From the NCBI GenBank assembly GCA_004321885.1, contig SCQK01000008.1:1-44042 (forward strand): 44,042 nucleotides of DNA, read 5' to 3'. Both the position numbers and the translations under genes were made by a program. The number at the start of each line of letters is the position of its first letter. The stretch's first letter is position 1. This DNA is from Patescibacteria group bacterium (GTDB taxonomy: Bacteria; Patescibacteriota; Patescibacteriia; Magasanikbacterales; GWA2-37-8). The notes under the pieces were generated by a model. The model did no database searches, was not told the DNA's origin, and was given only the letters and a program-made list of their open reading frames with translations. Below, piece after piece: positions 6,595 to 38,375 of this stretch.

Positions 6595-6601
6595 AAGTGT
6601 A

Positions 6602-7300
6602 TTATAAAATAGTTTTTAATAAAGCCACGGCCTTTTGTTTTATTATATCAATTTTATCGGCAGTGGACAAGTAGTGAACGGCTGTGCCACGGTCGGTAAA
6701 GATTTTTTGGTACTCGGGATTTTTGAATTGCGCTTCGGCTTTTTTCAAAAATTCCAGTTTTTCAAAAACAGCATTATCTTTTTTATCGCCCCTTTCGTTC
6801 AGCCGCGCCAGGGCTTCTTCGGCCTGGAGGTCGCAGATAATCAGATGGTCGGGGCGATGTTCCAAAGCCAGAGCGTTGCCGGGAAGCGCGGCTATCCCGG
6901 CGAAGTTCATTTCGCCTCCAAATGTTTGGTAGGCCAGCGAAGTGCTAAACGAGCGGTCGGCGATAATACAACGGCCATCGGCCAGCAGTGGGATATACAT
7001 TTTTTTATATAAAATTAAGCGGTCAAGCGAATAGGCCTGGGCAATGGCGGCCATGGAATAATTATTGCCATTTTTTATCAGCTCTTCACGGATGACTTTA
7101 CCCACGCCTGTGTAGGTGGGCTCGGCGGAAAAAATAAAATCATACGGGCGCGTTTCCGTCAGGGACGGGTATTCACATGTTTCTTTAATATAATTTTTCA
7201 AATCAAAAATACCGTTGCCTTCGGCCGCCAACTCTTCTTTCCAAAAATTAATAATTGTTCCCTTGCCGCTACCGTCAATGCCGTCTATGACAATGAACAT
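6602..7300 (-). CDS. tmk: Thymidylate kinase.
   Basis: P-loop FIVIDGIDGSGKGT and the DRS…SLAYQ motif. Confidence 0.75.
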   Translation of the reverse strand: MFIVIDGIDGSGKGTIINFWKEELAAEGNGIFDLKNYIKETCEYPSLTETRPYDFIFSAEPTYTGVGKVIREELIKNGNNYSMAAIAQAYSLDRLILYKKMYIPLLADGRCIIADRSFSTSLAYQTFGGEMNFAGIAALPGNALALEHRPDHLIICDLQAEEALARLNERGDKKDNAVFEKLEFLKKAEAQFKNPEYQKIFTDRGTAVHYLSTADKIDIIKQKAVALLKTIL

Positions 7301-7339
7301 ATACCTAAATTTTCAATTCGCAAATTGATAAATTGAAAA

Positions 7340-7846
7340 TTATTTTACCCGATACTTTACCTGCACCACGTTTGTATCAAGTTGTTTGGTCTCCAAAAGT
7401 TCCAAATTCAAATCCACGTCCGCGCCTAAAAAAAGCGGCAGGCCTTTGCCAAAAAGTTTGGGCTCTATCGTGAGCCAGGTTTCATTTATCAGCCCCTCTG
7501 TCAAAAATATCCCGTTGATGGTGGCCCCGCCGCCGATGATGACCGAAGAAAAGCCGCGCTGTTCCAAGTCGGCCAAAAGTTCTTTTGGTTGCTTGTCAGT
7601 ATATTCTACCGAGCCGGCAATATTTTTGCTCGCGTCGGGTTTGCGGGTCATGACAACGATGAGCCGGCCAGGCAAGGGCTTGCCTACTGTGGCATAAGTG
7701 GCCTGGCCGAAAATAATGACACCGGCTTTTTTGGTTTCTTCCACGAACATTTTTTTGTCGGCCTTGCTGGTCCAGTCGGCCGTATGCTTGCTGTCCCGAC
7801 CGATGAGCCCGTCCGCCGTAACGGCCATTAGTAATATAGTTTTCAT
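7340..7846 (-). CDS. Dihydrofolate reductase family protein (DHFR / RibD-C fold).
   Basis: MKTILLMAVTADGLIGRD…GVIIFGQATYATVGKPLPGRLIVVMTR. It overlaps the thyA stop by 4 nt. Confidence 0.65.
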   Translation of the reverse strand: MKTILLMAVTADGLIGRDSKHTADWTSKADKKMFVEETKKAGVIIFGQATYATVGKPLPGRLIVVMTRKPDASKNIAGSVEYTDKQPKELLADLEQRGFSSVIIGGGATINGIFLTEGLINETWLTIEPKLFGKGLPLFLGADVDLNLELLETKQLDTNVVQVKYRVK

Positions 7847-25135: not shown

Positions 25136-27496
25136 ATGCAAGAATCACGGCACTTAGAGTTTTTATTGGAAAGAGCTGGGATGCACGAAATGGAACGGCT
25201 TTTTGAAAAAGCCAAGCGGGATGTTTTGGATTTTTTGAATACGCCATATAAAGATTATGTTGAGAAATTGGACGATCAACAACCCGGCATACAATTTTTG
25301 CACAGCTCTGCTATTTTTGACGATTTTGAGAAAAAAATAAAAAATGTAATTGAAAAAGACCCGTCGCGTTTAAAAGTTGGCGCCATTAATTTTCTAAAAT
25401 TTTTATTGTTGAATGACAAAGCGGATGATTCACGAATTCCGCCAATTTTTGAAGATGTTTTCGTGAATTTTTATGACGATTCCGATACACCGACGCAAAA
25501 AACTTATCGGTCGTATCTTTACGAAAAAATAATAAAAGTTCTGATGAAGTTGAAAGGAAGCGATGCCGCTGTTGTAGAATGTCTGAAAGATATTGATTCA
25601 GTTGTATCCGTTAGCTTAATTGAGGATTTGCCACATGAGAAAGGCCGAGCGTACAAAATGTATAAGGGAAAATTTAATAAAGACATAAGCCCAGAGCAAT
25701 TTGACGTATTAAAACAAAGAAGACAAAAACAAATTGATGAAGGTGATATAGTGTATCGCGAGGATGCTTACGAAGAAACAGACATTGCGAATATAAATGA
25801 TGATAATTATAGAGTATATTATGATGAAGCATTTGAGGGGGAATTTTATGACGAAGAGGAGTATACATTTCCCAAAAAAACTGCTTTTAGGACGTGGAAC
25901 AAAAAGCAGGAAGTTGACCCGGTGGTCATTGACTATATAATTGAAAGCATTAGAACTGCTGAAACTGATTTTCGTGAAAATATTGATTTAATTTGTGAAA
26001 TTTTAAACAAAGACGCGGCGCGCGCCGGCAAAAAGTTGATGGAATTTGTCCAGCAAGAACAAAATCCGGTAAAAAAGTTAATCGCCACCAAGGTTTTATA
26101 TCGCCTGGAGTTCGGAAAAGTGGGAATGTCCGAAACAGGGTTGCGTTATTTGGACAAGCAGTTTGATTTGGGGGCGTACAACAATTCGGAAAATTTCGCG
26201 CATCGTCTTACGGGCGACGGCAAAGTGGGAATTTTTGACAAAAACAAACAAGCGCTCGGTTATTTCCAGTTGCACGGTCTGGATTCGCCGGAGCAAAAAT
26301 TAAAAGGTGATGTTTTGCGGTTCAGTTACGAGACATTGTTTCACCCCAAGCCGGGTGAAACGTCGAAAGAGCGCGCCGAGCGGGAGAAAATTTTGGAAGA
26401 ATTCAAGCAGAAATATTTTGACACTTATCTGCGGCAGGAAAAAGAAAAAGGAACCGGCAAGAGTTTTTATGAAGAAACCGGCGTGATGTTTAACAACTTA
26501 AGTTTTCCGGAACAGGGCTGGTTTTTGTGGTCTGTTTCGCATGCGAGCGAGGCGGATAAAAAACGCGCGATGGAGTTTATAAAAAAATATCGCGAGCCCG
26601 GGTTTAAGACGTTTTTATCGTTGGAACACGGGCAGGAAGGCGGGCGGGATATTTTGACTATCGGCGAAAATTTGGAACAGAAAACAGCCGAAGCGGTATT
26701 TCAAAAATATGGGCGGATAGTTGAAGCGACAAAGTCCATTGGCGGTTACATTGAGGCGCGGTTTGGCAAAGGGAAAAAATACAGCCAAGAGGACACGGAC
26801 AGAATTGTTGACAATCTGTTGAAAAGAGGGCAAAACTTACTTGCCGACACGGCCGATGAGATAGAAAAAGGCAAAGTAAAAGGCGAGATTATTTCCGAGA
26901 AATTGATGGAGAAGTTAAATTGTCTCCATGTGGATTTGCTGTTGTTCGCCAGCGCCTTCAAAGTATTTTCAAAAGATAAAAAAGAAATAAAATTTTCTGA
27001 AATAGAAGGAGTGGAACTGATTAGCAAGGACGCCAATGAGCTTGGAGAGCCGGAAAAAGAAGAAATGCGTAGAATTTTTATTGGCAACAGAAAAGAAGAG
27101 AAAGAGGAGTTTTCTGCGGAATATTTGGAAGAGCGGTCTAAACAATTTGATGAATCTGACCGCAAATATTATATCTTAAAAAAAGACGGCAAAGTCGTGT
27201 CATTTGCACGTTTCAACGAATTGCCGAACGGCAATTTGTATGTTTCTTTTATAAATACGGTTCCTGAAATAAAGGGCCATTCTATCGGTACCGCTTTTTT
27301 GAAGGTGGTTTTTGACCGAGAAACAACTAGTAGAGACGTAGAACTTAAAGTGCGCGTAGATAATCGCGTCGCCAAAAATTATCAAACAGATTTTGGTTTT
27401 AAAATAGTAGGTGAGCCGTTTGTTGATAAAAACGGGAAAAAGTATTTTAGGATGGTTCGGGAACCTTTGCGGGCGCGGCAGGAGAAGGCCGCATAG
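25136..27496 (+). CDS. Large hypothetical protein of 786 aa, AT-rich, with a C-terminal GNAT-like acetyltransferase fold.
   Basis: C-terminus …KVVSFARFNELPNGNLYVSFINTVPEIKGHSIGTAFLKVVF…VDNRVAKNYQTDFGFKIVGEPF…. By eye the GC content is lower than in neighbouring genes. Confidence 0.55.
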   Translation: MQESRHLEFLLERAGMHEMERLFEKAKRDVLDFLNTPYKDYVEKLDDQQPGIQFLHSSAIFDDFEKKIKNVIEKDPSRLKVGAINFLKFLLLNDKADDSRIPPIFEDVFVNFYDDSDTPTQKTYRSYLYEKIIKVLMKLKGSDAAVVECLKDIDSVVSVSLIEDLPHEKGRAYKMYKGKFNKDISPEQFDVLKQRRQKQIDEGDIVYREDAYEETDIANINDDNYRVYYDEAFEGEFYDEEEYTFPKKTAFRTWNKKQEVDPVVIDYIIESIRTAETDFRENIDLICEILNKDAARAGKKLMEFVQQEQNPVKKLIATKVLYRLEFGKVGMSETGLRYLDKQFDLGAYNNSENFAHRLTGDGKVGIFDKNKQALGYFQLHGLDSPEQKLKGDVLRFSYETLFHPKPGETSKERAEREKILEEFKQKYFDTYLRQEKEKGTGKSFYEETGVMFNNLSFPEQGWFLWSVSHASEADKKRAMEFIKKYREPGFKTFLSLEHGQEGGRDILTIGENLEQKTAEAVFQKYGRIVEATKSIGGYIEARFGKGKKYSQEDTDRIVDNLLKRGQNLLADTADEIEKGKVKGEIISEKLMEKLNCLHVDLLLFASAFKVFSKDKKEIKFSEIEGVELISKDANELGEPEKEEMRRIFIGNRKEEKEEFSAEYLEERSKQFDESDRKYYILKKDGKVVSFARFNELPNGNLYVSFINTVPEIKGHSIGTAFLKVVFDRETTSRDVELKVRVDNRVAKNYQTDFGFKIVGEPFVDKNGKKYFRMVREPLRARQEKAA

Positions 27497-28289
27497 GCGG
27501 CAAAGAATTCCAAATATATTCAAATAACGAGCGTTGCATCTGCGCTATATTTTTATCTTCAATGATGACTCCGATTTGTTGTTCCTCGGCAAGCGTGGAA
27601 TAACTGATGGTGTCGTTGTAAATTTGCATCCCAGTTTTGAAAGGATTTAACGCTTGCGGGATCAAACGCACTTCAAGCAAACGTGAACTCGGCGGCAAAT
27701 TTTTATATCTTTCCCTCGTAAATGGAGTATCAAGAGAGATTTGTTTTTTGTGAATTCCCAGTTCAATTCTTTTTTCAACATACTTTTTGTTCATTTCGCC
27801 TCCGTATTTAACCAAAGCTTCCATATCAATAAAAGTGTAAATTTCGCCTTTGGCTTTTAAAGAATCAAAAGTAACTTCTTTTATTCCTTCGGGACCTTCG
27901 TAAAATTTCACCCCGGGTTTGTGGTGGGCCAGGCGGTAGCTGGATTTAAGGTCGCCCAGCACGTCGCCGAGCATGGCTTTTTGGCGCTGGATTTCCTTTT
28001 CCTGGTCGGCCACAAAGTCCTCTAACTTTTCGGGCGGGGCGGCGTTGTACATGGTTTTCTTGCTTTTATCTCCTGCGCCGGGCTTTTTTTCGGTGGCCAA
28101 ATCAGACGCGATAAGGTTGTCCAGCACATAGTAGAGCATGGTGCGGGAAAAGTTGGTTTGCTGGCGCAGCTGGGGGATAGTGGCGTCGGGCGTTTTGAGC
28201 AAAACCTCATATAGCAAGGCCTCGTTTTCGCCCAGGCCCAGCTCTTTCAGGGTATTCTGGATAGTGGTATTTTGGTTAGCTTTCTGCAT
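27447..28289 (-). CDS. TrmB-family transcriptional regulator (N-terminal wHTH plus a C-terminal effector domain).
   Basis: …LGLGENEALLYEVLLKTPDATIPQLRQQTNFSRTMLYYVLDNL…. Convergent 50-nt overlap with the 786-aa gene. Confidence 0.6.
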   Translation of the reverse strand: MQKANQNTTIQNTLKELGLGENEALLYEVLLKTPDATIPQLRQQTNFSRTMLYYVLDNLIASDLATEKKPGAGDKSKKTMYNAAPPEKLEDFVADQEKEIQRQKAMLGDVLGDLKSSYRLAHHKPGVKFYEGPEGIKEVTFDSLKAKGEIYTFIDMEALVKYGGEMNKKYVEKRIELGIHKKQISLDTPFTRERYKNLPPSSRLLEVRLIPQALNPFKTGMQIYNDTISYSTLAEEQQIGVIIEDKNIAQMQRSLFEYIWNSLPPMRPSPAAPAKVPEPS

Positions 28290-28479: not shown

Positions 28480-28691
28480 TTAAGCTGGAAAATCTGAAAA
28501 AAGGGCTGAATAAGCACAAAGGGCTTAACAAACAGGGTGTCATTCTGAACGAAGTGAAGAATCCCTGTCGCACATTTCAATACAAATGGCGGATGACAGA
28601 ACCTGTGGAGGAGAGACCACGGGCGGACACAAAGCCAATTTTCTAAAAGCAATAGGGCCTCTCTCCAATTTGGATAGAGGCCCTTTTCGTT
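28480..28691 (+). ncRNA. Candidate small RNA of about 210 nt, bounded by the consensus promoter and an intrinsic terminator. Identity unknown.
   Basis: No ORF. It contains a P6-like internal hairpin (cagggtgtcattctgaacgaagtgaagaatccctg). Confidence 0.3.
28655..28691 (+). terminator. Intrinsic terminator gggcctctctcc-aatttg-gatagaggccc followed by ttttcgtt.
   Basis: An 11-12-bp stem with one mismatch, followed by a T-tract. Confidence 0.55.
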
Positions 28692-28734
28692 AGCGATGAG
28701 GCGAGCCGCTATAGCGGCAAGCCCATCCGGCTAA

Positions 28735-28752
28735 CGATCCGCCTTTGGCGGA
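28735..28752. repeat. P4 mini-hairpin (gATCCGCC-TTTGG-CGGAT).
   Basis: Further copies at 32303-32319 and 37217-37233. Confidence 0.5.
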
Positions 28753-29100
28753 TGTTGCTTACGCGGATGAGGGAGAGAACTTATTCATTTCCTCATCCGT
28801 TGAAGCAATGTGAACAACAAAGTTTCAACGCCACTTGTCGTGGATTGTACATTAAAATGCTCCTCCGCGAGTCCGGGCGACCGGTCCGCGGGTTGCGAAA
28901 AGCATCGTCTGGTTATTCGTATGAGTAGGAGAGAGTCCTACCGATAACAAGATGATTTCTCTGTTTGCTCCCGCCCAAGGCGGGAGACCGGGCGGAGAGT
29001 GTCCCACGATGCGGCGAAAGCCGAGTCCGGGCGCTCGCGGTCCGGCTATATGCCTACAGAGACATATAGTACCGAGTGCGCCCTAAATCCGATCACAACT

Positions 29101-29125
29101 GTCATCCTGAATTTATTTCAGGATC
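29101..29125. repeat. P5 hairpin (GTCATCCTGAA…TTCAGGATC).
   Basis: Second copy at 37111-37135. Confidence 0.5.
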
Positions 29126-29166
29126 TCCGTTCGGTCGGAGGCGGGGCAGACGATCCCATATCATTT

Positions 29167-29203
29167 CCTCCCCCTTAATAAGGGGGAGGTTAGGAGGGGG
29201 TAA
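29167..29203. repeat. P1 palindromic element.
   Basis: cctccccc-ttaataa-gggggaggttaggaggggg. Confidence 0.65.
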
Positions 29204-29320
29204 ATTGGATCGCCTGCCTCGCCGGAATCCTTGGAGAGAAAAGCGAGTCGGCGCTATTGAGAGAGTAGGCCTGGAGCACTTTGACAATTTATCCACTAAA
29301 GCTGGCAACTGTCGTTTTTT

Positions 29321-29354
29321 CTCCCCTCAATAAGGGGAGGACGAAGGAGGGGTG
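29321..29354. repeat. P1 palindromic element.
   Basis: ctcccctc-aataa-ggggaggacgaaggagggg. Confidence 0.65.
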
Positions 29355-29515
29355 TTGTCATTTTTAGTGGCGCCACCATGGTGGTGGCGAAAGAAAGGAG
29401 GTGCGCCATGAAGCGCACCTATCCGAGTGGGTTTCTTTAGATAAAAAAAAGAAACCCCGCGTTGTGGCTGGCATCCACTTTAATCACTGCCCGCGGCAGA
29501 CGCAGTTCTGTCGCG

Positions 29516-29575
29516 CCAACCAAACCTCGGCGGTTCACCAAGTAGCCGGGGAAGTCCTCGCGTCAGCGAGGGCGA
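29516..29575 (+). repeat. Direct repeat DR1 (…ttcaccaagtagccggggaagtcctcgcg-tcag-cgagggcga).
   Basis: Nearly identical to DR2 at 30041-30097; the two are about 520 bp apart. Confidence 0.6.
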
Positions 29576-30040
29576 GCGTGGCTCCGACGCCACTCGGACA
29601 ACGGTGCTGGCCGGAACAAACCAGCCGCGAGCCGCGATGCTAATATCTCCTATAAGTCGGCTGACATCCGACGAAGTGGAGAGAATGAGGCATCGCGAGG
29701 GGCGCGATAGACCCCGAAGGTGCCACACCATGGAGATGTGGTGTGGTGAGGAGACTCGTCTCCTCGGGTTCGCCCGAGGAGACGAGGAGGCCGTGCTTGT
29801 GGCGGCCCTGGCTGTCTTCGCGTTCGCGGAGGCGGCGGGGCTGCCGCGACCCAGCTTGAAGCTGGGTTGGATGGGGTGGAAGTATCTCACCCTGTCCAGC
29901 ACGCAGGAGGTGCAGCGACAGCTGCAGCTCCTGCGGGAGCACGGCCCCGCGGGTTACTGGGTGGCAGCCACCCGGTAGCCGGGCGGTTGGTGGACCGCTG
30001 TCAAAAACCACCCGTCTAAGCGCTCAATCGCTTAGACGCC

Positions 30041-30097
30041 CACCAAACCCCGGCAATTCACCAAGTAGCCGGGGAAGTCCTCGCGACGCGAGGGCGA
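30041..30097 (+). repeat. Direct repeat DR2.
   Basis: See DR1. Confidence 0.6.
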
Positions 30098-30238
30098 TAG
30101 TCCGGTCATCCGACCGGACAAGCGCTCGGAGGCGAACAAGCACATGTTCGCCTTTCCGATTACTCTTTTCACCGCAATAGTGCGGTGGAAGGAGTTGAGG
30201 AAAACAAAAAACAGCTTGCAAGCGCGAGCTGCCTTTAG

Positions 30239-30314
30239 TGGTGGACCCGACGGGAGTTGAACCCGTTCCTCTACTTGTCAATGGTAGCATGCTAACCGTT
30301 TACACCACGGGCCC
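30239..30314 (-). tRNA. tRNA of 76 nt with an encoded CCA. The anticodon loop is AUUGACA, so the apparent anticodon is UGA (nominally Ser), but it has a short type-I variable loop. The isotype is uncertain.
   Basis: Minus-strand cloverleaf. Acceptor GGGCCCG/CGGGTCC, D-arm GTGT-AAACGGTTA-GCAT, anticodon arm CTACC-ATTGACA-AGTAG, T-arm ACGGG-TTCAACT-CCCGT, discriminator A, then CCA. A TATAAT about 20 nt upstream of the 5' end. Confidence 0.7.
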
Positions 30315-30550
30315 CAGAGTCCACCGGGTCTAATTATAACACAAAAGTCCCTTCCTAAGAAGGGACTCATGTGTGACAAGTAGATGTAAACCCACGATGT
30401 ATAGGTTCATGCTACCAAAATTACATTATCAAGAAAGTAGTATTTTGTCAAGATTAAATTATCCACAGGCGATTTCCACTTCAAGCGTCACGCTTTATTG
30501 GCGTTATGCTTGAGGCGGGAATGGTTCCCGCCCTATGAAAGGAGGGCGCC

Positions 30551-31411
30551 ATGAAGAGCGCCCAGAAGAAGGGGCCGCCGAGCCCCTCGTCTCGGCACAA
30601 CGACCTCGCCTCCCAACACAGGGGGGTGAAGAGCGGAGGAGCCCTCCCCTCCGGCGACGCCAAGTCGCCGAAGAGGAGGCCCTCCAAGATCAACAGCCGC
30701 CAGTTGGAGGGAATGGAATTTCAGTATCTGCTCCTTGACGGGCTTTGGGTCAAATGCAAGCAGTTTGGCTTAAGCGAGCGCAACAATACGGTTCTGCTCT
30801 GCGCCCTGGGCATCACCAAAGAGGGCAAAAGAGAGATCGTTGGCTTTATGACGAGTGACGCCGAGGACGCCGAAAGCTGGGGGCAGATGCTCGCCAATTT
30901 GAAAGAGCGCGGATTGAATAAGGACAAACTCGAGCTGGTCATTGCCGACGACAACGCCGGACTGGTTTCAGCCGTAGGCCACTATCTGCCGGGGGTTAAA
31001 TTACAAAAGTCCGAATGAAGTTATTAAAGAAGTGGTGCTGTGAAAACTTGACTTTTTAGCCACAAAAAGCAAATTGCCGCCGATGTCAAAATTATCTATC
31101 AGTCCAACAGTAGAGAAGAGGCCACCGAGCGGATGAAACAATTCGCCAGGAAGTGGTACGTGGCCGAAGAGAAAGCCGTGAACAGTTTGCGCTTCAATTT
31201 TGAAAAAACATTGACCTACTTTGATTGGCCGCCCGACACCTGGAAAAAAATCAGGACCACCAACATTTTGGAAAGAGAGTTCCGGGAAGTCCGGCGTCGC
31301 ATCAAGGTGTTTGATAATTCGTTCAACGACCAAAACAGCTTACTCCGATACGGCAATTCCATTTTTGACAATCTTAATAATCATTACCCTGCAAAAAGTT
31401 ATACACACTAA
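30551..31411 (+). pseudogene. Degraded IS256-family (Mutator-like) transposase. The N-terminal third is missing and there is a frameshift or deletion between about 31018 and 31090.
   Basis: Fragment 1 is …FQYLLLDGLWVKCK…REIVGFMTSDAEDAESWGQMLANLKERGL…LVIADDNAGLVSAVGHYLPGVKLQ. Fragment 2, in a different frame, is …KQFARKWY…FDWPPDTWKKIRTTNILEREFREVRRRIKVF…. Confidence 0.65.
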
Positions 31412-31945: not shown

Positions 31946-32245
31946 ATGTCGTCGATTTTGATCGAGAGGGTTGTGATATTCGCGGACTTGGTGAGGGCGT
32001 TGGTGACGATCAATGACGGTCAGTTGCTGTACGCGGGGGGCCGCCTTCGTGGCGGCTCTCGCGAGGCGGCGGGGGCGGCGGTCGCCTCCGCAAAGGAGAT
32101 CGTTCTTGTGCGGGGCGGCGTGGAGGTGATGCGAATTCCGGTTGACGCGTTTAGGCACGAGCGGGTTTGGTCCCGCGCGTGCGTTCAGGTTTGCGATGGG
32201 GTCGATCTGGCCCGCGTCGCCCGCATGTGGTACGGGGACTTGTAG
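31946..32245 (+). CDS. Hypothetical 99-aa protein, GC-rich, with a strong RBS (aaggagag-N7-ATG).
   Basis: A good SD. It sits at the head of the MoxR/vWA module. Confidence 0.45.
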   Translation: MSSILIERVVIFADLVRALVTINDGQLLYAGGRLRGGSREAAGAAVASAKEIVLVRGGVEVMRIPVDAFRHERVWSRACVQVCDGVDLARVARMWYGDL

Positions 32246-32255
32246 TACTCGGTTG

Positions 32256-32285
32256 GTGAACGTCGCGCATTCTTGACGTTCACCT
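32256..32285. promoter_or_regulatory. Perfect 10-bp inverted repeat ggtgaacgtc-N10-gacgttcacc overlapping a TTGACG -35-like hexamer. Candidate operator/promoter for the MoxR gene.
   Basis: Located 158 nt upstream of the MoxR ATG. A P4 mini-hairpin follows at 32303-32319. Confidence 0.4.
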
Positions 32286-32442
32286 GCCCATCATAATTTT
32301 TTATCCGCCTTGGGCGGATTGAAAATTGCGATGGGGACCCAAACCGCGGGGTTGTCCTGCGTGGAGGGAAAAGTGAGAGAGCTTTGCCCTCCCCAGGGCA
32401 AGCCCAATCCGAGCGCCAACAATAGGTGCGAGGAGGTTTGCG

Positions 32443-33528
32443 ATGTACCAGAAAATTCTCGTTATTCTTTCGACGATGTTCGTGTTCGTCGAGGAGATCG
32501 CCCGTCTCCTCGGTCTCGCATTCGAGAGCAAGAAGTTTGTGATCATCTTCGGTCCCGCTGGGCATGGGAAGTCAGAGATGGTCAAGGCGGTGGTGGAGGG
32601 GCTCGGCCTGGACGGCGAGACCTTCTACCAGTTTTTTGGGGAAGGCATGGATGAGAGTAGACTCTTCGGCGGGCTTAACTTTAAGAAGCTCGAAGAGGAG
32701 AAAATTCTCGAGTATTACCCCGAGAAGAGCTTTCTGGCTGCTCGGGTAGCAGTGTTCGAGGAGCTGTTCGACGCGCCAGCGTCGGTGCTCCTGGCGCTCA
32801 AGGACGTATTGACAGCACGTGAGCTTCGGAACGGCGCGCAACGTTTCAAGATGCGCACCGAGCTCATCATCTGCCTCACGAATAAGGAGCCGAGCGAGAT
32901 TTCTGATCTCGGTCCGGCGGCGCACGCACTGATCGAGCGCTTCCCGTTACAGCTCAATCTCAAGTGGCGTGATTATTCCGCCAAGTCGTATCTTGAGATG
33001 TTCGATAAGATCGCGGCGCGGTTGGGCGGCCCGGTGATGAACGGTTTCAAGGCCGTTCTCGCCGAGATTCTCGCCAACGCCTCGGCGAACGGAAATTTCG
33101 TGTCGCCGAGGACCGCGGTTCACGCGCTCCAGGTCTGTCAGGCCGCTGCTTCGATGCGTGGTTCCGACCACGTAGAGAAGCAGGATCTCACAGATCTGCG
33201 TTTCCTCCCAGGTCTGGAGGGTCTCGCTGAGACCATCCAGAAGGACCTCGAAGCGGCGATGGAGAGGGCGGCGGCGGAGGCCAAGGTGGTGGAGGCAGAG
33301 CGTAAGCTCGCCACCATCATCGCGTCGCTGGCTGAGGCGATGGCGGCGAAGAGCCCCATCAAGCTTCTCCAGTCGGCGAAGTGTCTCACGGCCTTCGGCG
33401 ACGAGGCCGCTGCGTTGAAGGTCACCGACGGTCTCACCGACCGTCGCAAGCGGCTCCGCGACGCGGCCTCGGAAAAGGCCGCCGAGGCCCAGAAGCTCGC
33501 GCTGGAGAACACGCGCGTCGCGGCGTAG
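32443..33528 (+). CDS. MoxR-like AAA+ ATPase.
   Basis: Walker A FGPAGHGKSE. The second region …ELFDAPASVLLALKDVLTAREL… is the kind of hydrophobic stretch where a Walker B could lie, but no acidic DE/DD pair is evident. The downstream partner is a vWA protein. SD gaggagg. Confidence 0.65.
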   Translation: MYQKILVILSTMFVFVEEIARLLGLAFESKKFVIIFGPAGHGKSEMVKAVVEGLGLDGETFYQFFGEGMDESRLFGGLNFKKLEEEKILEYYPEKSFLAARVAVFEELFDAPASVLLALKDVLTARELRNGAQRFKMRTELIICLTNKEPSEISDLGPAAHALIERFPLQLNLKWRDYSAKSYLEMFDKIAARLGGPVMNGFKAVLAEILANASANGNFVSPRTAVHALQVCQAAASMRGSDHVEKQDLTDLRFLPGLEGLAETIQKDLEAAMERAAAEAKVVEAERKLATIIASLAEAMAAKSPIKLLQSAKCLTAFGDEAAALKVTDGLTDRRKRLRDAASEKAAEAQKLALENTRVAA

Positions 33529-33754
33529 GTTCTCCCGAGGTCAGACTAAGACCTCGTAAAAATAAAAAAGAAAATTCCGTCGCCGGGCAACCTGCGGCGT
33601 TATATAGCCCAGTCATCTGACTGGGCAAGCACTCGAAGGCGGGCTCTGCTTGCACAAGCATCTCGCCCTTCGACTTTTGAAGCAAAAAATTTTTGAATCA
33701 GAAGTCGGAGCAATAGTGCTCCAAATTTCCCCCGCAGTGCGGGAGGAGGGCGTA

Positions 33755-35107
33755 ATGAGTCAGTTTACTTTTCGCACGACCCCTCCCGCTACCTACATCA
33801 GCCCCACGGCTGATGAGATGCGGGACGCGGCGAAAAAGGTCGGCCTCAAGTCGTTTTCGAAGGACCTGGTGGCTGACCTCTGCAACCTGGCGGCGGGCGG
33901 GCGCATCACGCCGCCGTCGGGATATCGTGGTGAGGTGATGCGTCGAGTCGAGGAGAGACTGCCGGCTCCCGACTCGAATGGATCGTGGTCCATTTCCGTT
34001 CGCAAGAACGGGGTGAAGACCTCGGTCAGAACGAAGAACCGGCAGGAGGCGATCCAGGCGAAGACGGACGAAGCCATGCGGTATCATGGCAATGTCTGCG
34101 ACTTCCTTGGGTCGCTTGAGCCCGCCTCCTTCGGCGAGACGCCGCTTGAGCAGGCAATGGCCTGCCTTAAGCTGCTATCAAAGAAAGAGGGCGGGCAGGG
34201 TGGCGGAGAGGCCGGCGAGCCTCTCCCCATCTTTTCGGAGGAGAACAGCAAGCCGGAGGGCATTGCCGAGGCCCTCCGGGACGCAATCGAAGTTCTCGAG
34301 AGCCTTTCCCCCGAGGAGAAGGCAATGCTCGACCCGGAAGAAAAGGGTCTGAGCAAGCTCGAGGTCGCCGAGGACATGCTCGGCGACAAGCGGCTGATGA
34401 TCGACATCAGCCGTCAGTTGGATCAACTCACCAAGCTGCAAGTTCGCCGCCAGCGCAAGCTGGAAGTGGACCCGGCCGGTGAGGAGGTGCGGACTCGCCC
34501 GATCCGCAACCTTGGAGAGCTTTCAAAGATCTCCAAAACCGCTTGGGGCATGAGGCAGGAGAACCCCACGTTCTTCCTGTACCAGGCGGTAACGGGGCAG
34601 CTTCCGGTGCGCGAAAGGGTGACGCGCATCGAGAAGAAGCAGAGCATCTTCATCCTCGTGGACGGGTCGGGGTCCATGAGTGGGCGGCGTCACTGGAAGG
34701 CGACTGGGGTGGTGATGAACCGCCTCAAGGCCGTTTTGGCCGGTGACGCCGAGGTGTTCCTCAGCGTATTTGACACTTCCATGGGGAATGTCAGCCACGC
34801 GGGGACGCCGGAGGAGGCCAAGGAGCTGATCAAAAAGTTCCAGGCCAATAATTTCTCCGGCGGCGGCACGGACATCGCTTCGGCGGTGCGTGCCGCGCAT
34901 AAGTACATCGAGGACCTCATCTCCAAGGGCGCGGCTTTGTACCGCCCCGAGATAGTGGTCCTGACCGACGACGACACGTCGGTCGCCTCCCTCAAGAAGT
35001 CGGAACTCGCGGGAACGCGGGTCCACGGCTTCGCGATGGAAGTCGCGAACAAGTCGCTTGTCGACCTCGCTCGTTCCACGGGCGGGGTTGGCATCGACAA
35101 GTTTTAA
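33755..35107 (+). CDS. vWA (von Willebrand factor A) domain protein with an unassigned N-terminal domain of about 300 aa.
   Basis: MIDAS motif DGSGSM, and a vWA fold through …TDIASAV…VVLTDD…. The start is taken at the ATG at 33755, after the SD gggaggagg. Confidence 0.7.
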   Translation: MSQFTFRTTPPATYISPTADEMRDAAKKVGLKSFSKDLVADLCNLAAGGRITPPSGYRGEVMRRVEERLPAPDSNGSWSISVRKNGVKTSVRTKNRQEAIQAKTDEAMRYHGNVCDFLGSLEPASFGETPLEQAMACLKLLSKKEGGQGGGEAGEPLPIFSEENSKPEGIAEALRDAIEVLESLSPEEKAMLDPEEKGLSKLEVAEDMLGDKRLMIDISRQLDQLTKLQVRRQRKLEVDPAGEEVRTRPIRNLGELSKISKTAWGMRQENPTFFLYQAVTGQLPVRERVTRIEKKQSIFILVDGSGSMSGRRHWKATGVVMNRLKAVLAGDAEVFLSVFDTSMGNVSHAGTPEEAKELIKKFQANNFSGGGTDIASAVRAAHKYIEDLISKGAALYRPEIVVLTDDDTSVASLKKSELAGTRVHGFAMEVANKSLVDLARSTGGVGIDKF

Positions 35108-35742
35108 TGTCCAACCGACAACAAGGAGGTGCGTCGTGACCTATCACGGCAGTTCGTAAGGCAGGGTTAAACTTGCAGGAGAAATGGCCGCGCTCCTTTA
35201 CTGAAGGTCGGCCCATGGTCTGCTGATAGCCATGTATCCCGTATGACCATGTGGGTCAAGGAAAGTCAGCTCGGGTCCTGGCGCGAAAGCGATAGTCCAG
35301 GAGCCTCACCAAACGAGGCAAACATTGCGAACAGGGAGTGATTGAGCCCCTCTCGTGATGATTGATCCGAAAGGATCAAGCCGTGAAAAACACGGCAATC
35401 AATCTCGGGTGCGCAGGCGCGGGCCAAACGCATCTTAAAGTTCGGTTCGACCACGGTGTCGAACAAAGTAAGGGCTGGCCAAATCATTGGGTGCCCAGAC
35501 CCGCGACCAAGGCGAAAGGAGGTGAAAACCGCGTGCGTTCCACACGCATTTGCCTTGGATCCGGCGATCCTACTCGAGGAGAAAAACGAAGACAGCGGCC
35601 GGAGCTGTCTACCAATGGGACAATGCGCTCGGGGAAAGGGTTCTTGATTGCACTACAGTCAAGAACCCACCCCATCCTTGCTGATAAAATTTTTTCAGCA
35701 GAGATGAGGTTTGAAATGGAATGCCAAGGAAAGGAGGAAACA

Positions 35743-36207
35743 ATGCCTTGGCTACTGAAGAATGGTGAAGTGGTCGTGAATCGTTACCAGAGTCACCTCC
35801 ACTCCGACGTCGAGCGCTTGCTCCCGGAAGCGCTCGGCCAGATTGACCCGGCCGGGAGAGGGTTTCTCGTCGAGGAGGTGGTCTTTGACCGCGTCGTCGG
35901 CGAGACCACCTGCGTCGCCACTGGGCCTGGTGACCAGGCCGTTTACGCGAAGCGGCCCAAGCGGTTCGGGCCGAGCCGGTTCGTGAAGAACCGTTCGCCC
36001 GAGCCGTGCAACAGCGTCGTCGTCATCCTGAAGGCGGGTGACGGCGAGTACGTTCTGGTCACTGCCTTCGTGGGTACACGGCCCGAGCCGGAGCCCTGGG
36101 ATCGGAACGCCACCGAGAAGTCGGTGGAGTTCTGGGCCTCGCACGCCCTGATTTGGGGCAGCGAGCCCGTGATCCCGGGCACCGAAACGGACAAGTGCCC
36201 GTGGTAG
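35743..36207 (+). CDS. Hypothetical 154-aa protein, GC-rich.
   Basis: Strong RBS (aaggaggaaaca-ATG). It is the last gene of the GC-rich island. Confidence 0.4.
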   Translation: MPWLLKNGEVVVNRYQSHLHSDVERLLPEALGQIDPAGRGFLVEEVVFDRVVGETTCVATGPGDQAVYAKRPKRFGPSRFVKNRSPEPCNSVVVILKAGDGEYVLVTAFVGTRPEPEPWDRNATEKSVEFWASHALIWGSEPVIPGTETDKCPW

Positions 36208-36340
36208 AATGGCGGTATGTCCGCCCGCGTTAGGCCGCAGTGGCGCGTAAGAAATATCTGCGACACACTCGGTGTTTGAGGAACGGCTTGCACAAGCGCT
36301 CCTCTTCACCCGCATAGCGACAAAGGAGATTTCTCGCTTA

Positions 36341-36390
36341 CCCCTCACCAACTCTCCCCTTATAAAGGGGAGAGAGAATGAGGGTAAAGG
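36341..36390. repeat. P1 palindromic element at the right edge of the GC-rich island.
   Basis: cccctcaccaactctcccc-ttataaa-ggggagagagaatgaggg. Confidence 0.6.
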
Positions 36391-36436
36391 AATCTCTCCT
36401 CCGCGCGAGGAATTAAATTTGTCGCTAGTCGGGTGA

Positions 36437-36470
36437 AAGAAAAAAGACGCTCTTATGAGACGTCTTTTTT
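36437..36470. terminator. Bidirectional terminator aaaaaagacgctc-ttatg-agacgtcttttttt.
   Basis: The stem is flanked by A6 and T7. Confidence 0.55.
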
Positions 36471-37725: not shown

Positions 37726-37829
37726 CCCCTCCCTAACCCTCCCCTTATATGCGAAATGAGAGAGGAAACAAAAGCAATGCTTTTGTTTCCGAACGAATGA
37801 GCATATATCCAGGATATAAAGGGGGAGGG
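37726..37829. repeat. P1 element split by a 64-bp secondary insertion (37751-37814) that carries its own hairpin (ggaaacaaaagcaatgcttttgtttcc).
   Basis: The left arm is cccctccctaaccctcccc-ttata (ends 37750). The right arm is tataaa-gggggaggg (37815-37829). Confidence 0.55.
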
Positions 37830-37844
37830 ACTAACGAAACTATT

Positions 37845-38375
37845 ATGCGTGGAAGCAAAAAACAGGAAAAGCGGCCAATCGCGGCCGACCCAAAATATGG
37901 TTCGGTCCAACTGGCCAAGTTTATCAATTATGTGATGGAAAGGGGCAAGAAAACCGTGGCCCGAGCAATCGTTTACGGCGCTTTGGAAAACATCGCCGAA
38001 TCCGCCTCTGCCAAAGGAGTAGATGCGTCCTCTGGCGCCAAAGGCGGACAGGGCGGCAAAAAAGACGCGCTCAAAGTTTTTGAGGAAGCCGTGCGCAACG
38101 TGGCCCCCCAGGTAGAGGTGCGCTCGCGGCGCGTGGGCGGAGCCAACTATCAGGTGCCCATGCCTGTCAGCTCCTCGCGCCAGCACGCCCTTACTTTCCG
38201 CTGGATTATAGACGCGGCGCGCAATAAAAAAGGCCTGCCCATGGCCAAAAAGCTAGCCCAGGTTTTGCTTGACGCCAGCAACAACACCGGCGACGCCATG
38301 AAAAAGCGCGACGACGTGCATAGAATGGCCGAAGCCAACAAGGCCTTCGCGCACTTTGCCCGCTTTGCTAAATAA
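37845..38375 (+). CDS. rpsG: 30S ribosomal protein S7, with an insertion of about 14 aa (…[14 protein letters not shown]…).
   Basis: S7 similarity (…[16 protein letters not shown]…[15 protein letters not shown]). The start is at the ATG at 37845. Confidence 0.85.

What the first reader, a model, noticed from the sequence alone, without database searches (positions are those of the whole stretch)
31946..36207. GC-rich island carrying a MoxR-like AAA+ ATPase / vWA module with small flanking proteins, a candidate NTP-dependent 'conflict' (defence-type) system
From about 29.4 to 36.3 kb the GC content is clearly higher than in the flanking housekeeping genes. The island ends at a P1 element and a bidirectional terminator, and on its left side abuts a degraded IS256-family transposase and a tRNA. 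Inside it are, in order:
- A 99-aa ORF with a strong RBS.
- A perfect 10+10 inverted-repeat operator in a promoter.
- A MoxR-like AAA+ ATPase (Walker A GPAGHGKSE).
- A vWA protein (MIDAS DGSGSM) with an unassigned N-terminal domain of 300 aa.
- A 630-bp ORF-free gap.
- A 154-aa ORF with a strong RBS.
MoxR-vWA pairs with additional associated proteins have been described computationally as ternary vWA-MoxR-VMAP systems in the comparative-genomics literature on NTP-dependent conflict systems; I recall this from memory and cite no specific paper. The accessory partners here, the long vWA N-terminal region and the two small ORFs, are unrecognisable to me and could be novel effector or sensor components.
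Basis: partly seen in the sequence, partly recalled or inferred. Interest (0 to 1): 0.7.

Follow-up and report, generated by a model that had tools for sequence, protein, structure and literature searches.

The report
Conserved RNA-structured MoxR-vWA module in Parcubacteria
The GC-rich stretch is not a recently acquired defence island but the local copy of a very slowly evolving three-gene module (AAA+ ATPase, vWA adaptor, RNase-like small protein) found at the same chromosomal site in many Parcubacteria, and it is unusual because its transcript is packed with conserved and selected RNA structure.

Summary
The MoxR ATPase (32443-33528), the vWA/MIDAS protein (true start 33755, to 35107) and the 154-aa ORF (35743-36207) are real. 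Each has hundreds of homologues in Patescibacteria at 57-82% identity. The 99-aa ORF is an orphan, and the 10+10 inverted repeat is not conserved.

The module is not a mobile island. In at least 17 distinct loci it sits downstream of the same divergent TrmB regulator and GNAT-domain gene, which have native GC. None of the third components that define ternary MoxR-vWA conflict systems is present.

The GC excess is nevertheless shared by all orthologous loci: +12.5 points on average, with GC3 up to 0.85 against 0.15-0.55 in neighbouring genes.

The likely cause is RNA structure:
- The coding sequences fold far better than synonymous-codon shuffles (z -3.4 to -12 for MoxR and vWA in 10 loci). Neighbouring genes and GC-rich viral homologues do not.
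- The "ORF-free gap" holds a covarying structured RNA of about 430 nt.
- MoxR has a conserved leader that sequesters its Shine-Dalgarno sequence.
- Neither RNA is in Rfam.

The 154-aa protein belongs to the DUF3228 superfamily and has an RNase A/BECR-like core. Its jumbo-phage homologues sit inside tRNA gene clusters.

My best reading is a chaperone-controlled RNase with a self-protected transcript. The function is inferred, not shown.

The parts
27447..28289 (-). TrmB-family HTH regulator, divergently oriented. It is a conserved syntenic neighbour and a candidate regulator of the module, and it has native GC.
   Evidence: Pfam TrmB 4.5e-9. A TrmB homologue lies 1-3 kb upstream of MoxR on the opposite strand in at least 17 distinct loci. 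Its GC3 is 0.17-0.62, generally below that of the module.
25136..27496 (+). Large protein with a C-terminal GNAT (RimI-like) domain. It is syntenic context and has native GC.
   Evidence: NCBIfam rimI 1.8e-7 at residues 658-759. Homologues lie upstream of TrmB in L001, L002, L007, L022, L047, L053, L059 and others.
31946..32245 (+). 99-aa ORF. It is an orphan and not a conserved component: either a chance ORF in GC-rich structured sequence or a strain-specific gene.
   Evidence: Only a self-hit among 5.8 billion proteins. No homologue in the 68 loci then held. No similarity to the L071 97-aa ORF at the analogous position. Nucleotide similarity to close relatives begins only at 32319.
32255..32284 (+). 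Perfect 10+10 inverted repeat with a 10-nt spacer, at the 5' edge of the leader. More likely an RNA hairpin than an operator.
   Evidence: Sequence read directly. Not conserved in sequence in the other type A loci. No sigma-70 consensus promoter is reported there. It lies in a 150-nt tile with folding z = -7.0.
32296..32442 (+). Conserved structured 5' leader of MoxR ('type A'). A covarying hairpin carries the loop CAACAAU. Around it, the helix GCAAGCC/GGUUUGC sequesters the Shine-Dalgarno and start region. The alternative hairpin UUGCCCU-CCCC-AGGGCAA would compete with that helix.
   Evidence: nhmmer matches in 11 loci directly upstream of MoxR. RNAalifold on 11 sequences gives 26 pairs; the CAACAAU hairpin stem has compensatory changes at 4 of its 5 pairs. 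A second leader type occurs in 19 further loci, with 14 pairs of which 10 have double changes. No Rfam match.
32443..33528 (+). MoxR-class AAA+ ATPase, 361 aa, with the canonical P-loop GPAGHGKS and a C-terminal tail rich in Ala, Glu and Lys (probably helical; inferred from the sequence).
   Evidence: Pfam bpMoxR 7.1e-17, AAA_5 1.2e-9, AAA_lid_2. 52-82% identity to the gene upstream of vWA in all Patescibacteria-type loci. Synonymous-shuffle folding z = -6.0.
33531..33741 (+). Structured intergenic element. It begins with the hairpin CGAGGUC-AGACUAA-GACCUCG followed by an A-rich tract, and further hairpins run up to the vWA ribosome-binding site.
   Evidence: nhmmer finds the same element after MoxR and/or after vWA in L001 (twice), L007, L008/L044, L017, L042 and L058. 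Blastn gives 90% identity over 42 nt to L001. The tile at 33600-33749 has z = -6.1.
33755..35107 (+). vWA protein, 450 aa. It has a family-specific N-terminal domain (residues 1 to about 290) and a C-terminal vWA domain with a complete MIDAS motif: D303-x-S305-x-S307, T372 and D405 are invariant.
35296..35721 (+). Structured noncoding RNA of about 430 nt that fills the 'ORF-free gap'. Its features include a hairpin with loop ACCAAAC, a GNRA-capped hairpin, long-range helices, and a 10-bp 3' hairpin at 35638-35668.
   Evidence: Iterated nhmmer matches in L001, L005, L006, L008/L044 and L018. Covariance model R1 of the 5' domain (35300-35452) also finds sequences outside its training set: L007 (E 1e-10), L017, and L071 (79 bits, E 3e-27), where it again lies between vWA and the P154-like gene. 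86.6% of cells are paired against 35-48% when the partners are slid; 27 of 32 pairs show double changes; 0 of 500 shuffles reach the observed values. G-U pairs favour the + strand. No Rfam match.
35743..36207 (+). P154, a 154-aa protein of the DUF3228 superfamily with an RNase A/BECR-like core. It is the conserved third protein of the module.

Best explanation
This is the window's copy of a module inherited at a fixed chromosomal site, beside a divergent TrmB-family regulator, in a broad group of Parcubacteria/Patescibacteria.

It encodes three proteins:
- a bpMoxR-type AAA+ ATPase;
- a vWA adaptor with a complete MIDAS site and a family-specific N-terminal domain;
- P154, a small DUF3228-superfamily protein whose core resembles RNase A-like and BECR-fold RNase toxins.

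Proposed mechanism:
- The MoxR ring and its vWA adaptor use ATP to hold, load or release P154.
- P154 acts as an endoribonuclease, probably on tRNA or another structured RNA.
- Expression is gated by two conserved RNAs. One is a leader that base-pairs the MoxR Shine-Dalgarno and start region, with a competing alternative hairpin. The other is an RNA of about 430 nt in front of P154.
- The coding sequences are under selection at synonymous sites for base pairing. This raises GC3 and creates the 'GC island'.
- I take this heavy pairing to make the module's own transcript long-lived, or resistant to single-strand-specific cleavage, including cleavage by its own nuclease.

Shown here: conservation, synteny, domain content, fold similarity, covarying RNA helices, and excess folding of the coding sequences.

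Inferred: nuclease activity and its target, the chaperone-client relation, the switching of the leader, and the self-protection role of the structure.
For: Conservation and synteny:
- vWA has 303 homologues and P154 has 256, nearly all Patescibacteria, at 57-82% identity.
- The order GNAT gene, then TrmB on the minus strand, then MoxR and vWA recurs in at least 17 distinct loci.
- Median pairwise identity is 62-64% for MoxR and vWA, against 29% for the flanking genes. The pairs closest in TrmB are also among the closest pairs in the module proteins.

GC excess:
- Module GC is at or above flank GC in all 23 loci compared (in L018 the rounded values are equal). The mean excess is 12.5 points and the largest is 26.

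RNA folding of the coding sequences:
- Against synonymous-codon shuffles, z is -3.4 to -12 for MoxR and vWA in 10 of 10 loci.
- For P154, z is -2.1 to -7.0 in eight of the nine loci tested. The divergent P154-like gene of L001 is the exception, at -0.4.
- Flanking and housekeeping genes give z from -2.3 to +0.9. rpsG is the exception, at -3.95.
- Viral MoxR/vWA homologues with GC3 0.76-0.92 give -2.6 to +1.2, so the effect is not a GC3 artefact.
- The sense strand is always more stable than the antisense strand.

Conserved noncoding RNAs.

P154 fold and context:
- Invariant residues H18, H20, R71, R74, R79 and nearly invariant H134 lie in the same N-terminal, middle and C-terminal order as the His/Lys/His catalytic residues of RNase A. 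That comparison rests on my own knowledge.
- Phage homologues of P154 lie inside tRNA gene clusters.
- A tRNA-like gene sits directly upstream of P154 in L026 and L037.
Against: - Folding in the coding regions is not positionally conserved (structure conservation index 0-0.13). The selected property is therefore general 'foldedness', whose purpose is unknown.
- Identities of MoxR and vWA are only loosely correlated between loci (rho 0.43), which hints at recombination between lineages.
- Gene order varies: P154 lies upstream or downstream, and accessory small ORFs differ between lineages.
- The ~430-nt gap RNA was found only in the subgroup with the type A leader.
- In L002-L004 the MoxR gene carries an in-frame TAG.
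Confidence: 0.4

Rival explanations
1. Defence or abortive-infection 'conflict' system. A MoxR-vWA thresholding switch releases an RNase toxin (P154) on phage attack or other invasion. The system has become fixed in this lineage.
For: - The ATPase matches the Pfam family built from ternary conflict systems.
- P154 has a toxin-type RNase fold.
- P154 homologues occur in jumbo phages, and a MoxR-vWA pair occurs on a viral contig, which suggests traffic between phage and host.
- Small accessory ORFs vary between lineages.
- A highly structured, stable toxin mRNA recalls type I toxin-antitoxin systems (my own knowledge).
Against: - None of the defining third components (VMAP, iSTAND, FtsH, beta-propeller) is present, and the vWA has no C-terminal propeller.
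- The P-loop is canonical, not GXXXTAKS.
- PADLOC gives only a marginal hit.
- The position is syntenic, only one copy is seen per locus, and the proteins evolve about twice as slowly as their neighbours.
- There is no hypervariable effector or sensor.
- No antitoxin or immunity gene is recognised.
Confidence: 0.2
2. Ordinary MoxR-vWA maturation chaperone, of the CoxD/CoxE, NorQ/NorD, RavA/ViaA or CbbQ/CbbO kind. It assembles or inserts a cofactor into a protein complex specific to Patescibacteria. P154 is a client or adaptor, not a nuclease. The RNA elements only tune expression.
For: - The vWA domain matches VWA_CoxE best (7e-10), with weak ViaA and chelatase hits. The ATPase weakly matches RavA.
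- All characterised MoxR-vWA pairs work in this way (PMC9976466 abstract; PMC7159879).
- High conservation and fixed synteny fit a housekeeping role.
Against: - No candidate client enzyme is encoded nearby in any locus.
- It does not explain why three genes in every lineage carry strong selection for RNA folding, or the large structured RNA.
- The P154 fold and its tRNA-cluster context in phages point to RNA.
Confidence: 0.2
3. The GC excess reflects repeated horizontal replacement of the cassette, or GC-biased gene conversion at a recombination-prone, highly conserved locus. The ultimate source would be a GC-rich phage or bacterium. On this view the excess folding is a by-product.
For: - Identities of MoxR and vWA between loci are discordant, for example L047/L002 at 72% against 47%, and L033/L002 at 54% against 68%.
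- Module GC correlates only weakly with host GC (rho 0.31).
- A full-length homologue lies on a 62% GC viral contig.
- The GC boundaries coincide with the conserved sequence.
Against: - The flanking synteny is preserved, and the closest TrmB pairs are also among the closest module pairs.
- GC-rich viral homologues show no excess folding, so high GC alone does not produce the signal.
- The sense strand is consistently more stable than the antisense strand, which points to selection on the RNA.
- The intergenic helices covary.
Confidence: 0.15

Closest known systems
MoxR-vWA-beta-propeller ternary systems (Kaur, Burroughs, Iyer and Aravind 2020, PMC7159879; Pfam PF20030 bpMoxR)
   Same: - The ATPase scores best against bpMoxR (7e-17).
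- It is paired with an adjacent vWA gene that has a long uncharacterised N-terminal region.
- Additional linked small proteins cannot be unified with known superfamilies, as the paper describes for a subset of these systems.
   Different: [quoted passage not shown]
- There is no third protein with TPR, propeller and transmembrane regions.
- The P-loop is canonical, not GXXXTAKS.
- The host group is Patescibacteria, not Bacteroidetes, Planctomycetes, Verrucomicrobia or Proteobacteria.
- The proteins are highly conserved and syntenic rather than variable.
CoxD-CoxE, NorQ-NorD and RavA-ViaA type MoxR/vWA chaperone pairs
   Same: - An AAA+ MoxR ATPase is followed by a MIDAS-bearing vWA protein.
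- VWA_CoxE is the best vWA model.
- There are weak RavA and ViaA matches.
   Different: - All scores are far below the family cut-offs (20-24 bits against 500-780).
- No client oxidoreductase or decarboxylase gene is nearby.
- An extra RNase-like partner and structured RNAs are present.
DUF3228 (PF11539; structures 2pd0 and 4fbd) and RNase A-like CdiA-CT / BECR-fold RNase toxins
   Same: - P154 shares a C-terminal motif with DUF3228: a strand, then EPEP, then RN, then FW..HA.
- L001 encodes a true DUF3228 protein just upstream of its MoxR gene.
   Different: - There is no significant sequence match to either Pfam family.
- DUF3228 has no known function.
- P154 is not fused to a toxin-delivery domain, and no immunity gene is recognised.
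Ro60 (TROVE + vWA) / Y RNA ribonucleoproteins
   Same: Conceptually similar: a MIDAS vWA protein encoded next to structured noncoding RNAs and tRNA-like elements.
   Different: - A MoxR partner is present.
- The RNAs match no Y RNA model.
Genome-scale ordered RNA structure (GORS) of RNA viruses, and highly folded type I toxin mRNAs such as hok
   Same: There is pervasive excess folding of coding sequence that is not positionally conserved between relatives. This comparison rests on my own knowledge.
   Different: Here the property belongs to a chromosomal three-gene DNA locus of a bacterium, and it is maintained across deeply diverged lineages.

Membership tests
Ternary MoxR-vWA conflict systems (VMAP / iSTAND / FtsH / beta-propeller; PMC7159879) | Adjacent MoxR AAA+ ATPase and vWA genes | tested here: met
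   Pfam bpMoxR and AAA_5 on 32443-33528. VWA_CoxE and VWA_2 on the next gene.
Ternary MoxR-vWA conflict systems (VMAP / iSTAND / FtsH / beta-propeller; PMC7159879) | A conserved third component: VMAP, inactive STAND NTPase, double FtsH AAA+, or a TPR + beta-propeller protein | tested here: not met
   The only conserved third protein is the 154-aa P154, which has no Pfam domain. No such component appears among the called genes or the clustered ORFs of about 60 loci. The features are defined.
Ternary MoxR-vWA conflict systems (VMAP / iSTAND / FtsH / beta-propeller; PMC7159879) | [quoted passage not shown] | tested here: not met
   The protein ends about 10 residues after the vWA domain (...GGVGIDKF) in all 32 aligned members. 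The P-loop is GPAGHGKS.
Ternary MoxR-vWA conflict systems (VMAP / iSTAND / FtsH / beta-propeller; PMC7159879) | Variable or polymorphic effector and sensor modules, with sporadic, mobile distribution | tested here: not met
   The proteins are 57-82% identical across lineages. The module sits at a syntenic site. It evolves more slowly than its neighbours.
Known anti-phage defence systems (PADLOC-DB 2.0) | Significant match of the components to defence-system models | tested here: not met
   There is only a 21.5-bit mad8 hit to the P-loop region of the ATPase. vWA, P154 and the 99-aa ORF have no hit.
MoxR-class AAA+ / vWA chaperone pairs (general class) | A MoxR AAA+ module with Walker A and lid domain, plus a partner with a complete MIDAS motif (DxSxS...T...D) | tested here: met
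   AAA_5 and AAA_lid_2 hits and GPAGHGKS. D303, S305, S307, T372 and D405 are invariant in A1.
MoxR-class AAA+ / vWA chaperone pairs (general class) | ATP-dependent remodelling of a defined client | not testable with these tools
   This needs biochemistry. No client gene is evident in the neighbourhoods.
DUF3228 superfamily (PF11539) | Sequence match to the family model or its members | tested here: inconclusive
   No Pfam hit at E < 0.1. hhalign to the L001 DUF3228 protein aligns only the strand-EPEP segment, with low probability. The profile gives a weak hit to 4fbd, E 1.3.
DUF3228 superfamily (PF11539) | Same fold as the solved members 2pd0 and 4fbd | tested here: met
   [not shown]
RNase A-like / BECR-fold ribonucleases | Fold similarity to solved RNase toxins | tested here: met
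   [not shown]
RNase A-like / BECR-fold ribonucleases | Catalytic residues in place, and RNA cleavage activity | not testable with these tools
   Invariant H18, H20, R71, R74, R79 and nearly invariant H134 are suggestive only. I did not map the residues onto the model or superpose it on known RNases.
Rfam RNA families | Covariance-model match for the leader, the intergenic element or the gap RNA | tested here: not met
   The gathering and E-value scans of the window, and of L045, L008 and L026, find only tRNA.

The most novel reading that the evidence does not exclude
The locus is an RNA-centred system of a kind not yet described. Its parts are a chaperone pair (MoxR-vWA), an RNase-fold protein, two new families of structured RNA (a translational switch and an RNA of about 430 nt that may be a ligand, scaffold or substrate), and a transcript that evolution keeps 'armoured' by base pairing throughout its coding sequence. 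On this reading it works as a self-protected ribonucleoprotein machine for tRNA or RNA processing, or for stress-induced RNA shutdown, in ultra-small epibiotic bacteria.
Probability: 0.3. Interest if true: 0.85.

Novelty: new variant of a known kind. Interest (0 to 1): 0.65.

Why it matters
Patescibacteria have tiny genomes and few conserved lineage-specific systems whose role is understood. This work points to several things worth following up.

- **A near-universal module for a large Parcubacteria group.** It evolves as slowly as core machinery, yet it consists entirely of unnamed proteins attached to a MoxR-vWA pair. It is a concrete target for the few cultivable representatives.
- **A rare bacterial case of selection for RNA folding.** Locus-wide selection across whole coding sequences is strong enough to raise GC3 by up to 50 points. 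This is a caution for methods that call such islands horizontal transfers from composition alone.
- **Two new structured RNA families.** Both have covariation support and can be tested directly as riboregulators.
- **A first functional lead for DUF3228 and phrog_23674.** They have an RNase-like fold and sit in tRNA gene contexts in jumbo phages.

Tried and rejected
- **Third gene in phages linked to MoxR-vWA.** Rejected: the ATPase and neighbour next to the GAP32 P154 homologue are unrelated to the window's MoxR and vWA. The viral contig L060 has MoxR-vWA but no P154.
- **A large conserved RNA or gene in the 1-3 kb between TrmB and the module.** Rejected: apart from the leader and P154, these gaps share no sequence between distant loci and have native GC.
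- **Positionally conserved helices inside the coding sequences.** Rejected: SCI is 0-0.13.
- **A recurring 'ACCAA' hairpin-loop motif as a shared protein-binding site.** No enrichment in the window.
- **Accessory small ORF families from other loci.** None has a remnant in the window or a Pfam domain.
- **GC3 as an artefactual cause of the folding signal.** Rejected using GC-rich viral controls.
- **A sigma-70 promoter at the inverted repeat.** Not found.
- **Literature.** Nothing on DUF3228 or on a MoxR-vWA module in Patescibacteria.
- **Searches that could not be completed.**
  - The afdb50 fold library was unavailable.
  - The genome-contig scan with a single sequence returned only 6 loci, so prevalence across species could not be measured.
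  - The exact-sequence look-up for the window's MoxR protein found no record.
  - The 27-mer from the repeat at 29.5/30.06 kb has no match in viral contigs.

Full report
**1. What is in the window**

The window is a 44,042-bp contig of a Patescibacteria (CPR) bacterium. Its vWA protein is identical to an NCBI entry named [quoted passage not shown] from a contig of exactly that length.

GC is 0.57-0.62 between about 32.0 and 36.3 kb. It is 0.54-0.60 at 29-30.5 kb, and about 0.48 elsewhere.

- The ORF at 32443-33528 is a MoxR-class AAA+ ATPase. Pfam gives bpMoxR 7e-17 and AAA_5 1e-9, and the P-loop is GPAGHGKS.
- The next gene has a C-terminal vWA domain (VWA_CoxE 7e-10) with DGSGSM.
- An alignment of 32 family members places the true start at the ATG at 33755, giving 450 aa. 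D303, S305, S307, T372 and D405 are invariant, so the MIDAS motif is complete.
- The 154-aa ORF runs from 35743 to 36207.

The two IS256/Mutator transposase fragments (30551-31411) and a tRNA gene (30239-30314, minus strand) are also there. So is the perfect 10+10 inverted repeat at 32255-32284.

**2. Which parts are conserved**

The vWA protein has 303 homologues. The 119 best besides the window's own protein are 56-82% identical over 88-94% of the query, which includes the unassigned N-terminal 290 residues. Where they carry a name, almost all are Patescibacteria, including a Taylorbacteria entry.

The 154-aa protein (P154) has 256 homologues. The 119 best besides the window's own protein are 61-78% identical. 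All are "hypothetical" and none has a Pfam domain.

I fetched 72 related loci in all. They break down as follows:
- 61 are genome or metagenome loci that encode a vWA homologue.
- 9 are viral contigs.
- 2 are jumbo-phage regions that hold a P154 homologue.

In the genome and metagenome loci, MoxR always directly precedes vWA wherever the contig reaches that far. P154 is found on the same strand in about 35 loci, either just upstream of MoxR or downstream of vWA.

The 99-aa ORF is different:
- It matches only itself among 5.8 billion proteins.
- It has no counterpart in the 68 loci held at that point.
- It is unrelated to the 97-aa ORF at the equivalent position in a close relative.
- Nucleotide similarity to that relative begins only at 32319.

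The inverted repeat is not conserved in sequence, and no consensus promoter is found at it.

**3. Not an island in the usual sense**

In at least 17 distinct loci the module lies 1-3 kb downstream of a divergently oriented TrmB-family regulator. That regulator in turn follows a large gene with a GNAT domain, exactly as in the window (27447-28289 minus strand; 25136-27496). The Kaiserbacteria-type locus L010 is an exception within the 4.9 kb available.

These neighbours have the local GC and are only about 29% identical between loci. MoxR and vWA are 62-64% identical between the same loci. The pairs closest in TrmB are also among the closest pairs in MoxR and vWA.

The second half of that test, "with native GC", is not met:
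- Module GC is at or above flank GC in all 23 loci where flanks were available (equal after rounding in L018). The mean excess is 12.5 points and the largest is 26.
- Module GC3 is generally 0.5-0.85 (0.32-0.44 in the three most AT-rich genomes), against 0.15-0.62 for the adjacent TrmB and GNAT genes. Examples are L059 (0.82 against 0.31-0.39) and L022 (0.69 against 0.24-0.28).

The proteins have diverged to about 60% identity, so I infer that synonymous sites are saturated. A GC3 offset that persists in every lineage then needs a force specific to this locus.

**4. The force appears to be RNA structure**

With dinucleotide shuffles, 150-nt tiles of the flanking genes have folding z near 0. 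Tiles of the vWA coding sequence have z from -2.7 to -6.2. The leader tile has z -7.0 and the MoxR-vWA spacer tile has z -6.1.

I then used a stricter null that permutes synonymous codons. This keeps the protein, the codon usage and GC3. The results:
- MoxR and vWA fold more stably than their shuffles in all ten loci tested, with z from -3.4 to -12.
- P154 gives z from -2.1 to -7.0 in eight of the nine loci tested. The divergent P154-like gene of L001 gives -0.4.
- GNAT, TrmB, fusA, recA, ftsK and guaA give z from -2.3 to +0.9. rpsG is an exception at -3.95.
- MoxR/vWA homologues on GC-rich viral contigs (GC3 0.76-0.92) give -2.6 to +1.2, so the signal is not a by-product of high GC3.

The sense strand is more stable than the antisense strand in 14 of 14 genes. 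This points to the RNA rather than to a DNA palindrome effect.

The coding-region structures are not conserved in position. The structure conservation index across 14 loci is 0-0.13. What is maintained is general foldedness, as in the genome-scale ordered RNA structure of some RNA viruses. That comparison rests on my own knowledge.

**5. Conserved noncoding RNAs**

*(a) The MoxR leader.*
- A leader lies directly upstream of MoxR in essentially all loci, in two forms.
- The window has type A (about 32296-32442).
- A hairpin with the loop CAACAAU has compensatory changes at four of its five pairs.
- Around it, the near-invariant helix GCAAGCC/GGUUUGC, together with UCY/GAG, pairs the Shine-Dalgarno and start region.
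- An alternative hairpin UUGCCCU-CCCC-AGGGCAA would compete with that helix.
- Type B occurs once per locus in 19 further distinct loci. RNAalifold gives 14 pairs, 10 of them with double compensatory changes.

*(b) The MoxR-vWA spacer.* The spacer (33531-33741) begins with a hairpin followed by an A-rich tract. The same element recurs after MoxR and/or after vWA in other loci.

*(c) The "630-bp ORF-free gap".*
- The gap contains a structured RNA of about 430 nt (about 35296-35721).
- A covariance model of its 5' domain finds sequences outside its training set in L007, L017 and L071. In L071 it again lies between vWA and the P154-like gene (79 bits).
- On the resulting alignment, 86.6% of cells pair, against 35-48% when the partners are slid.
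- 27 of 32 pairs show changes on both sides, and no shuffle out of 500 reaches the observed values. The caveat is that this alignment was fitted to the model.
- This RNA was found only in the subgroup with type A leaders.

None of these RNAs matches Rfam 15.

**6. The proteins**

2pd0 and 4fbd are the solved members of DUF3228. They are hit by the DUF3228-annotated gene that L001 carries just upstream of its MoxR gene. P154 shares the C-terminal motif of that family: a strand, then EPEP, then RN, then FW..HA.

Eight of 34 family members give weak hits to Pfam RNAse_A_bac. Histidines H18 and H20 and arginines R71, R74 and R79 are invariant, and H134 is nearly invariant.

P154 matches phrog_23674 at 1.6e-25. 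It has homologues of about 40% identity in jumbo phages such as GAP32, CBB, Serratia BF and Yersinia fHe-Yen9-04, and in Pseudomonas phage Astolliot (174 kb). These lie inside tRNA gene clusters and are not linked to a related MoxR-vWA pair. In L026 and L037 a tRNA-like gene sits directly upstream of P154.

**7. Comparison with known systems**

The ternary conflict systems are defined by a third component: VMAP, inactive STAND, FtsH, or a TPR/beta-propeller protein. [quoted passage not shown] None of these features is present.

PADLOC gives only a marginal hit. Matches to RavA/ViaA, CoxE and the chelatases are far below the family cut-offs.

The locus is therefore a member of the general MoxR-vWA chaperone class. 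It has a new third partner and new RNA components. It is not a member of any named system.

**8. Interpretation**

I favour an ATP-driven MoxR-vWA pair that controls an RNase-fold protein acting on tRNA or another structured RNA. Two riboregulators would set its expression. Its own transcript would be kept base-paired so that it is long-lived or resists single-strand-specific cleavage (confidence 0.4).

The descriptive parts are shown by the data. The nuclease activity, the chaperone-client relation and the self-protection role are inferences.

The rivals are:
- a lineage-fixed defence or abortive-infection system (0.2);
- a conventional cofactor- or complex-assembly chaperone, with the RNA elements serving only for regulation (0.2);
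- recurrent horizontal replacement or biased gene conversion as the cause of the GC excess (0.15). The loose correlation between MoxR and vWA identities (rho 0.43) gives this some support.

**9. Verdict**

The defence-island interpretation is only partly supported.

What is there is a new variant of the MoxR-vWA theme with unusual RNA-level properties. Interest 0.65.

Noticed in passing
window 28650-30750: This stretch of about 2 kb is ORF-free and GC-rich (0.55-0.67). It is extremely dense in hairpins: every 150-nt tile but one (28800-28949, z -1.9) has a dinucleotide-shuffle z from -2.9 to -9.5. Apart from the tRNA part it is not similar to any related locus. It contains two copies of a motif of about 85 nt, each preceded by a hairpin. 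The exact 29-mer TTCACCAAGTAGCCGGGGAAGTCCTCGCG occurs at 29534 and 30057. The 27-mer core has no match in viral contigs.
   Followed up: partly
window 30239-30314 (-), and L007 10387-10460 (-): The tRNA gene is called Ser(UGA), but it is only 76 nt, lacks the long variable arm and has C at position 37. It has its own extended -10 element and terminator. Its 5' leader GGUGGAC can pair with the 3' end GUCCACC. L007 carries the same tRNA body and flanks near its module, but with anticodon GCG.
   Followed up: partly
window 2815, 20396, 20738, 22478, 22513, 29170, 29322, 36354: A REP-like palindrome, TCCCCTT(A/T)ATAAGGGGA, is dispersed across the window. There are 10 matches against 0.06 expected. 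The copy at 36354 lies inside a larger palindromic element of about 115 nt (36316-36430), which is followed by a bidirectional terminator. The tile at 36300-36449 has z = -9.1.
   Followed up: partly
L002 9587-9589 (same in L003 and L004): The MoxR gene of this lineage carries an in-frame TAG in place of a conserved glutamine (VEK*DLTDL against VEKQDLTDL in the window). The identical sequence was recovered from three different metagenome samples. This could be a split gene, read-through or a pseudogene.
   Followed up: partly
L026 4498-4585 and L037 7369-7456; L069 (phage GAP32) and L070 (phage Astolliot): In L026 and L037 a tRNA-like gene with an extended anticodon arm lies about 35 nt upstream of P154. 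ARAGORN calls it 'tRNA-???' in one locus and Leu(CAA) in the other. In jumbo phages the P154 homologue sits within tRNA gene clusters, immediately after tRNA-Trp in GAP32.
   Followed up: partly
L002 12094-12432, L010 4399-4758, L045 2429-2788; L001 12387-13073, L006 8678-9343, L007 8290-8958; L011 3842-4174, L012 5914-6243: Several further families of small GC-rich ORFs travel with the module in some lineages and change position relative to MoxR-vWA. Their sizes are about 115 aa, 220 aa, 110 aa and 120-157 aa. None has a Pfam domain, and none is present in the window.
   Followed up: partly
L060 (IMG/VR contig, 112 kb, 62% GC) 4521-7413: A viral contig carries a full-length MoxR-vWA pair of this family, including the N-terminal domain. 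MoxR is 51% identical and vWA 33%. There is no P154 homologue, and the coding sequences show no excess RNA folding.
   Followed up: partly
L007, L008 and L009 record titles: Contigs carrying the module are labelled 'uncultured Gammaproteobacteria' (L007, L008) and 'Elusimicrobia' (L009) in their MAG records. L007 nevertheless has the same GNAT-TrmB synteny as the Patescibacteria loci, so it is probably mis-binned.
   Followed up: no
window 37749-38375 (rpsG): The S7 gene also folds better than its synonymous shuffles (z = -3.95), unlike fusA and rpsL. This may reflect an autoregulatory structure.
   Followed up: no
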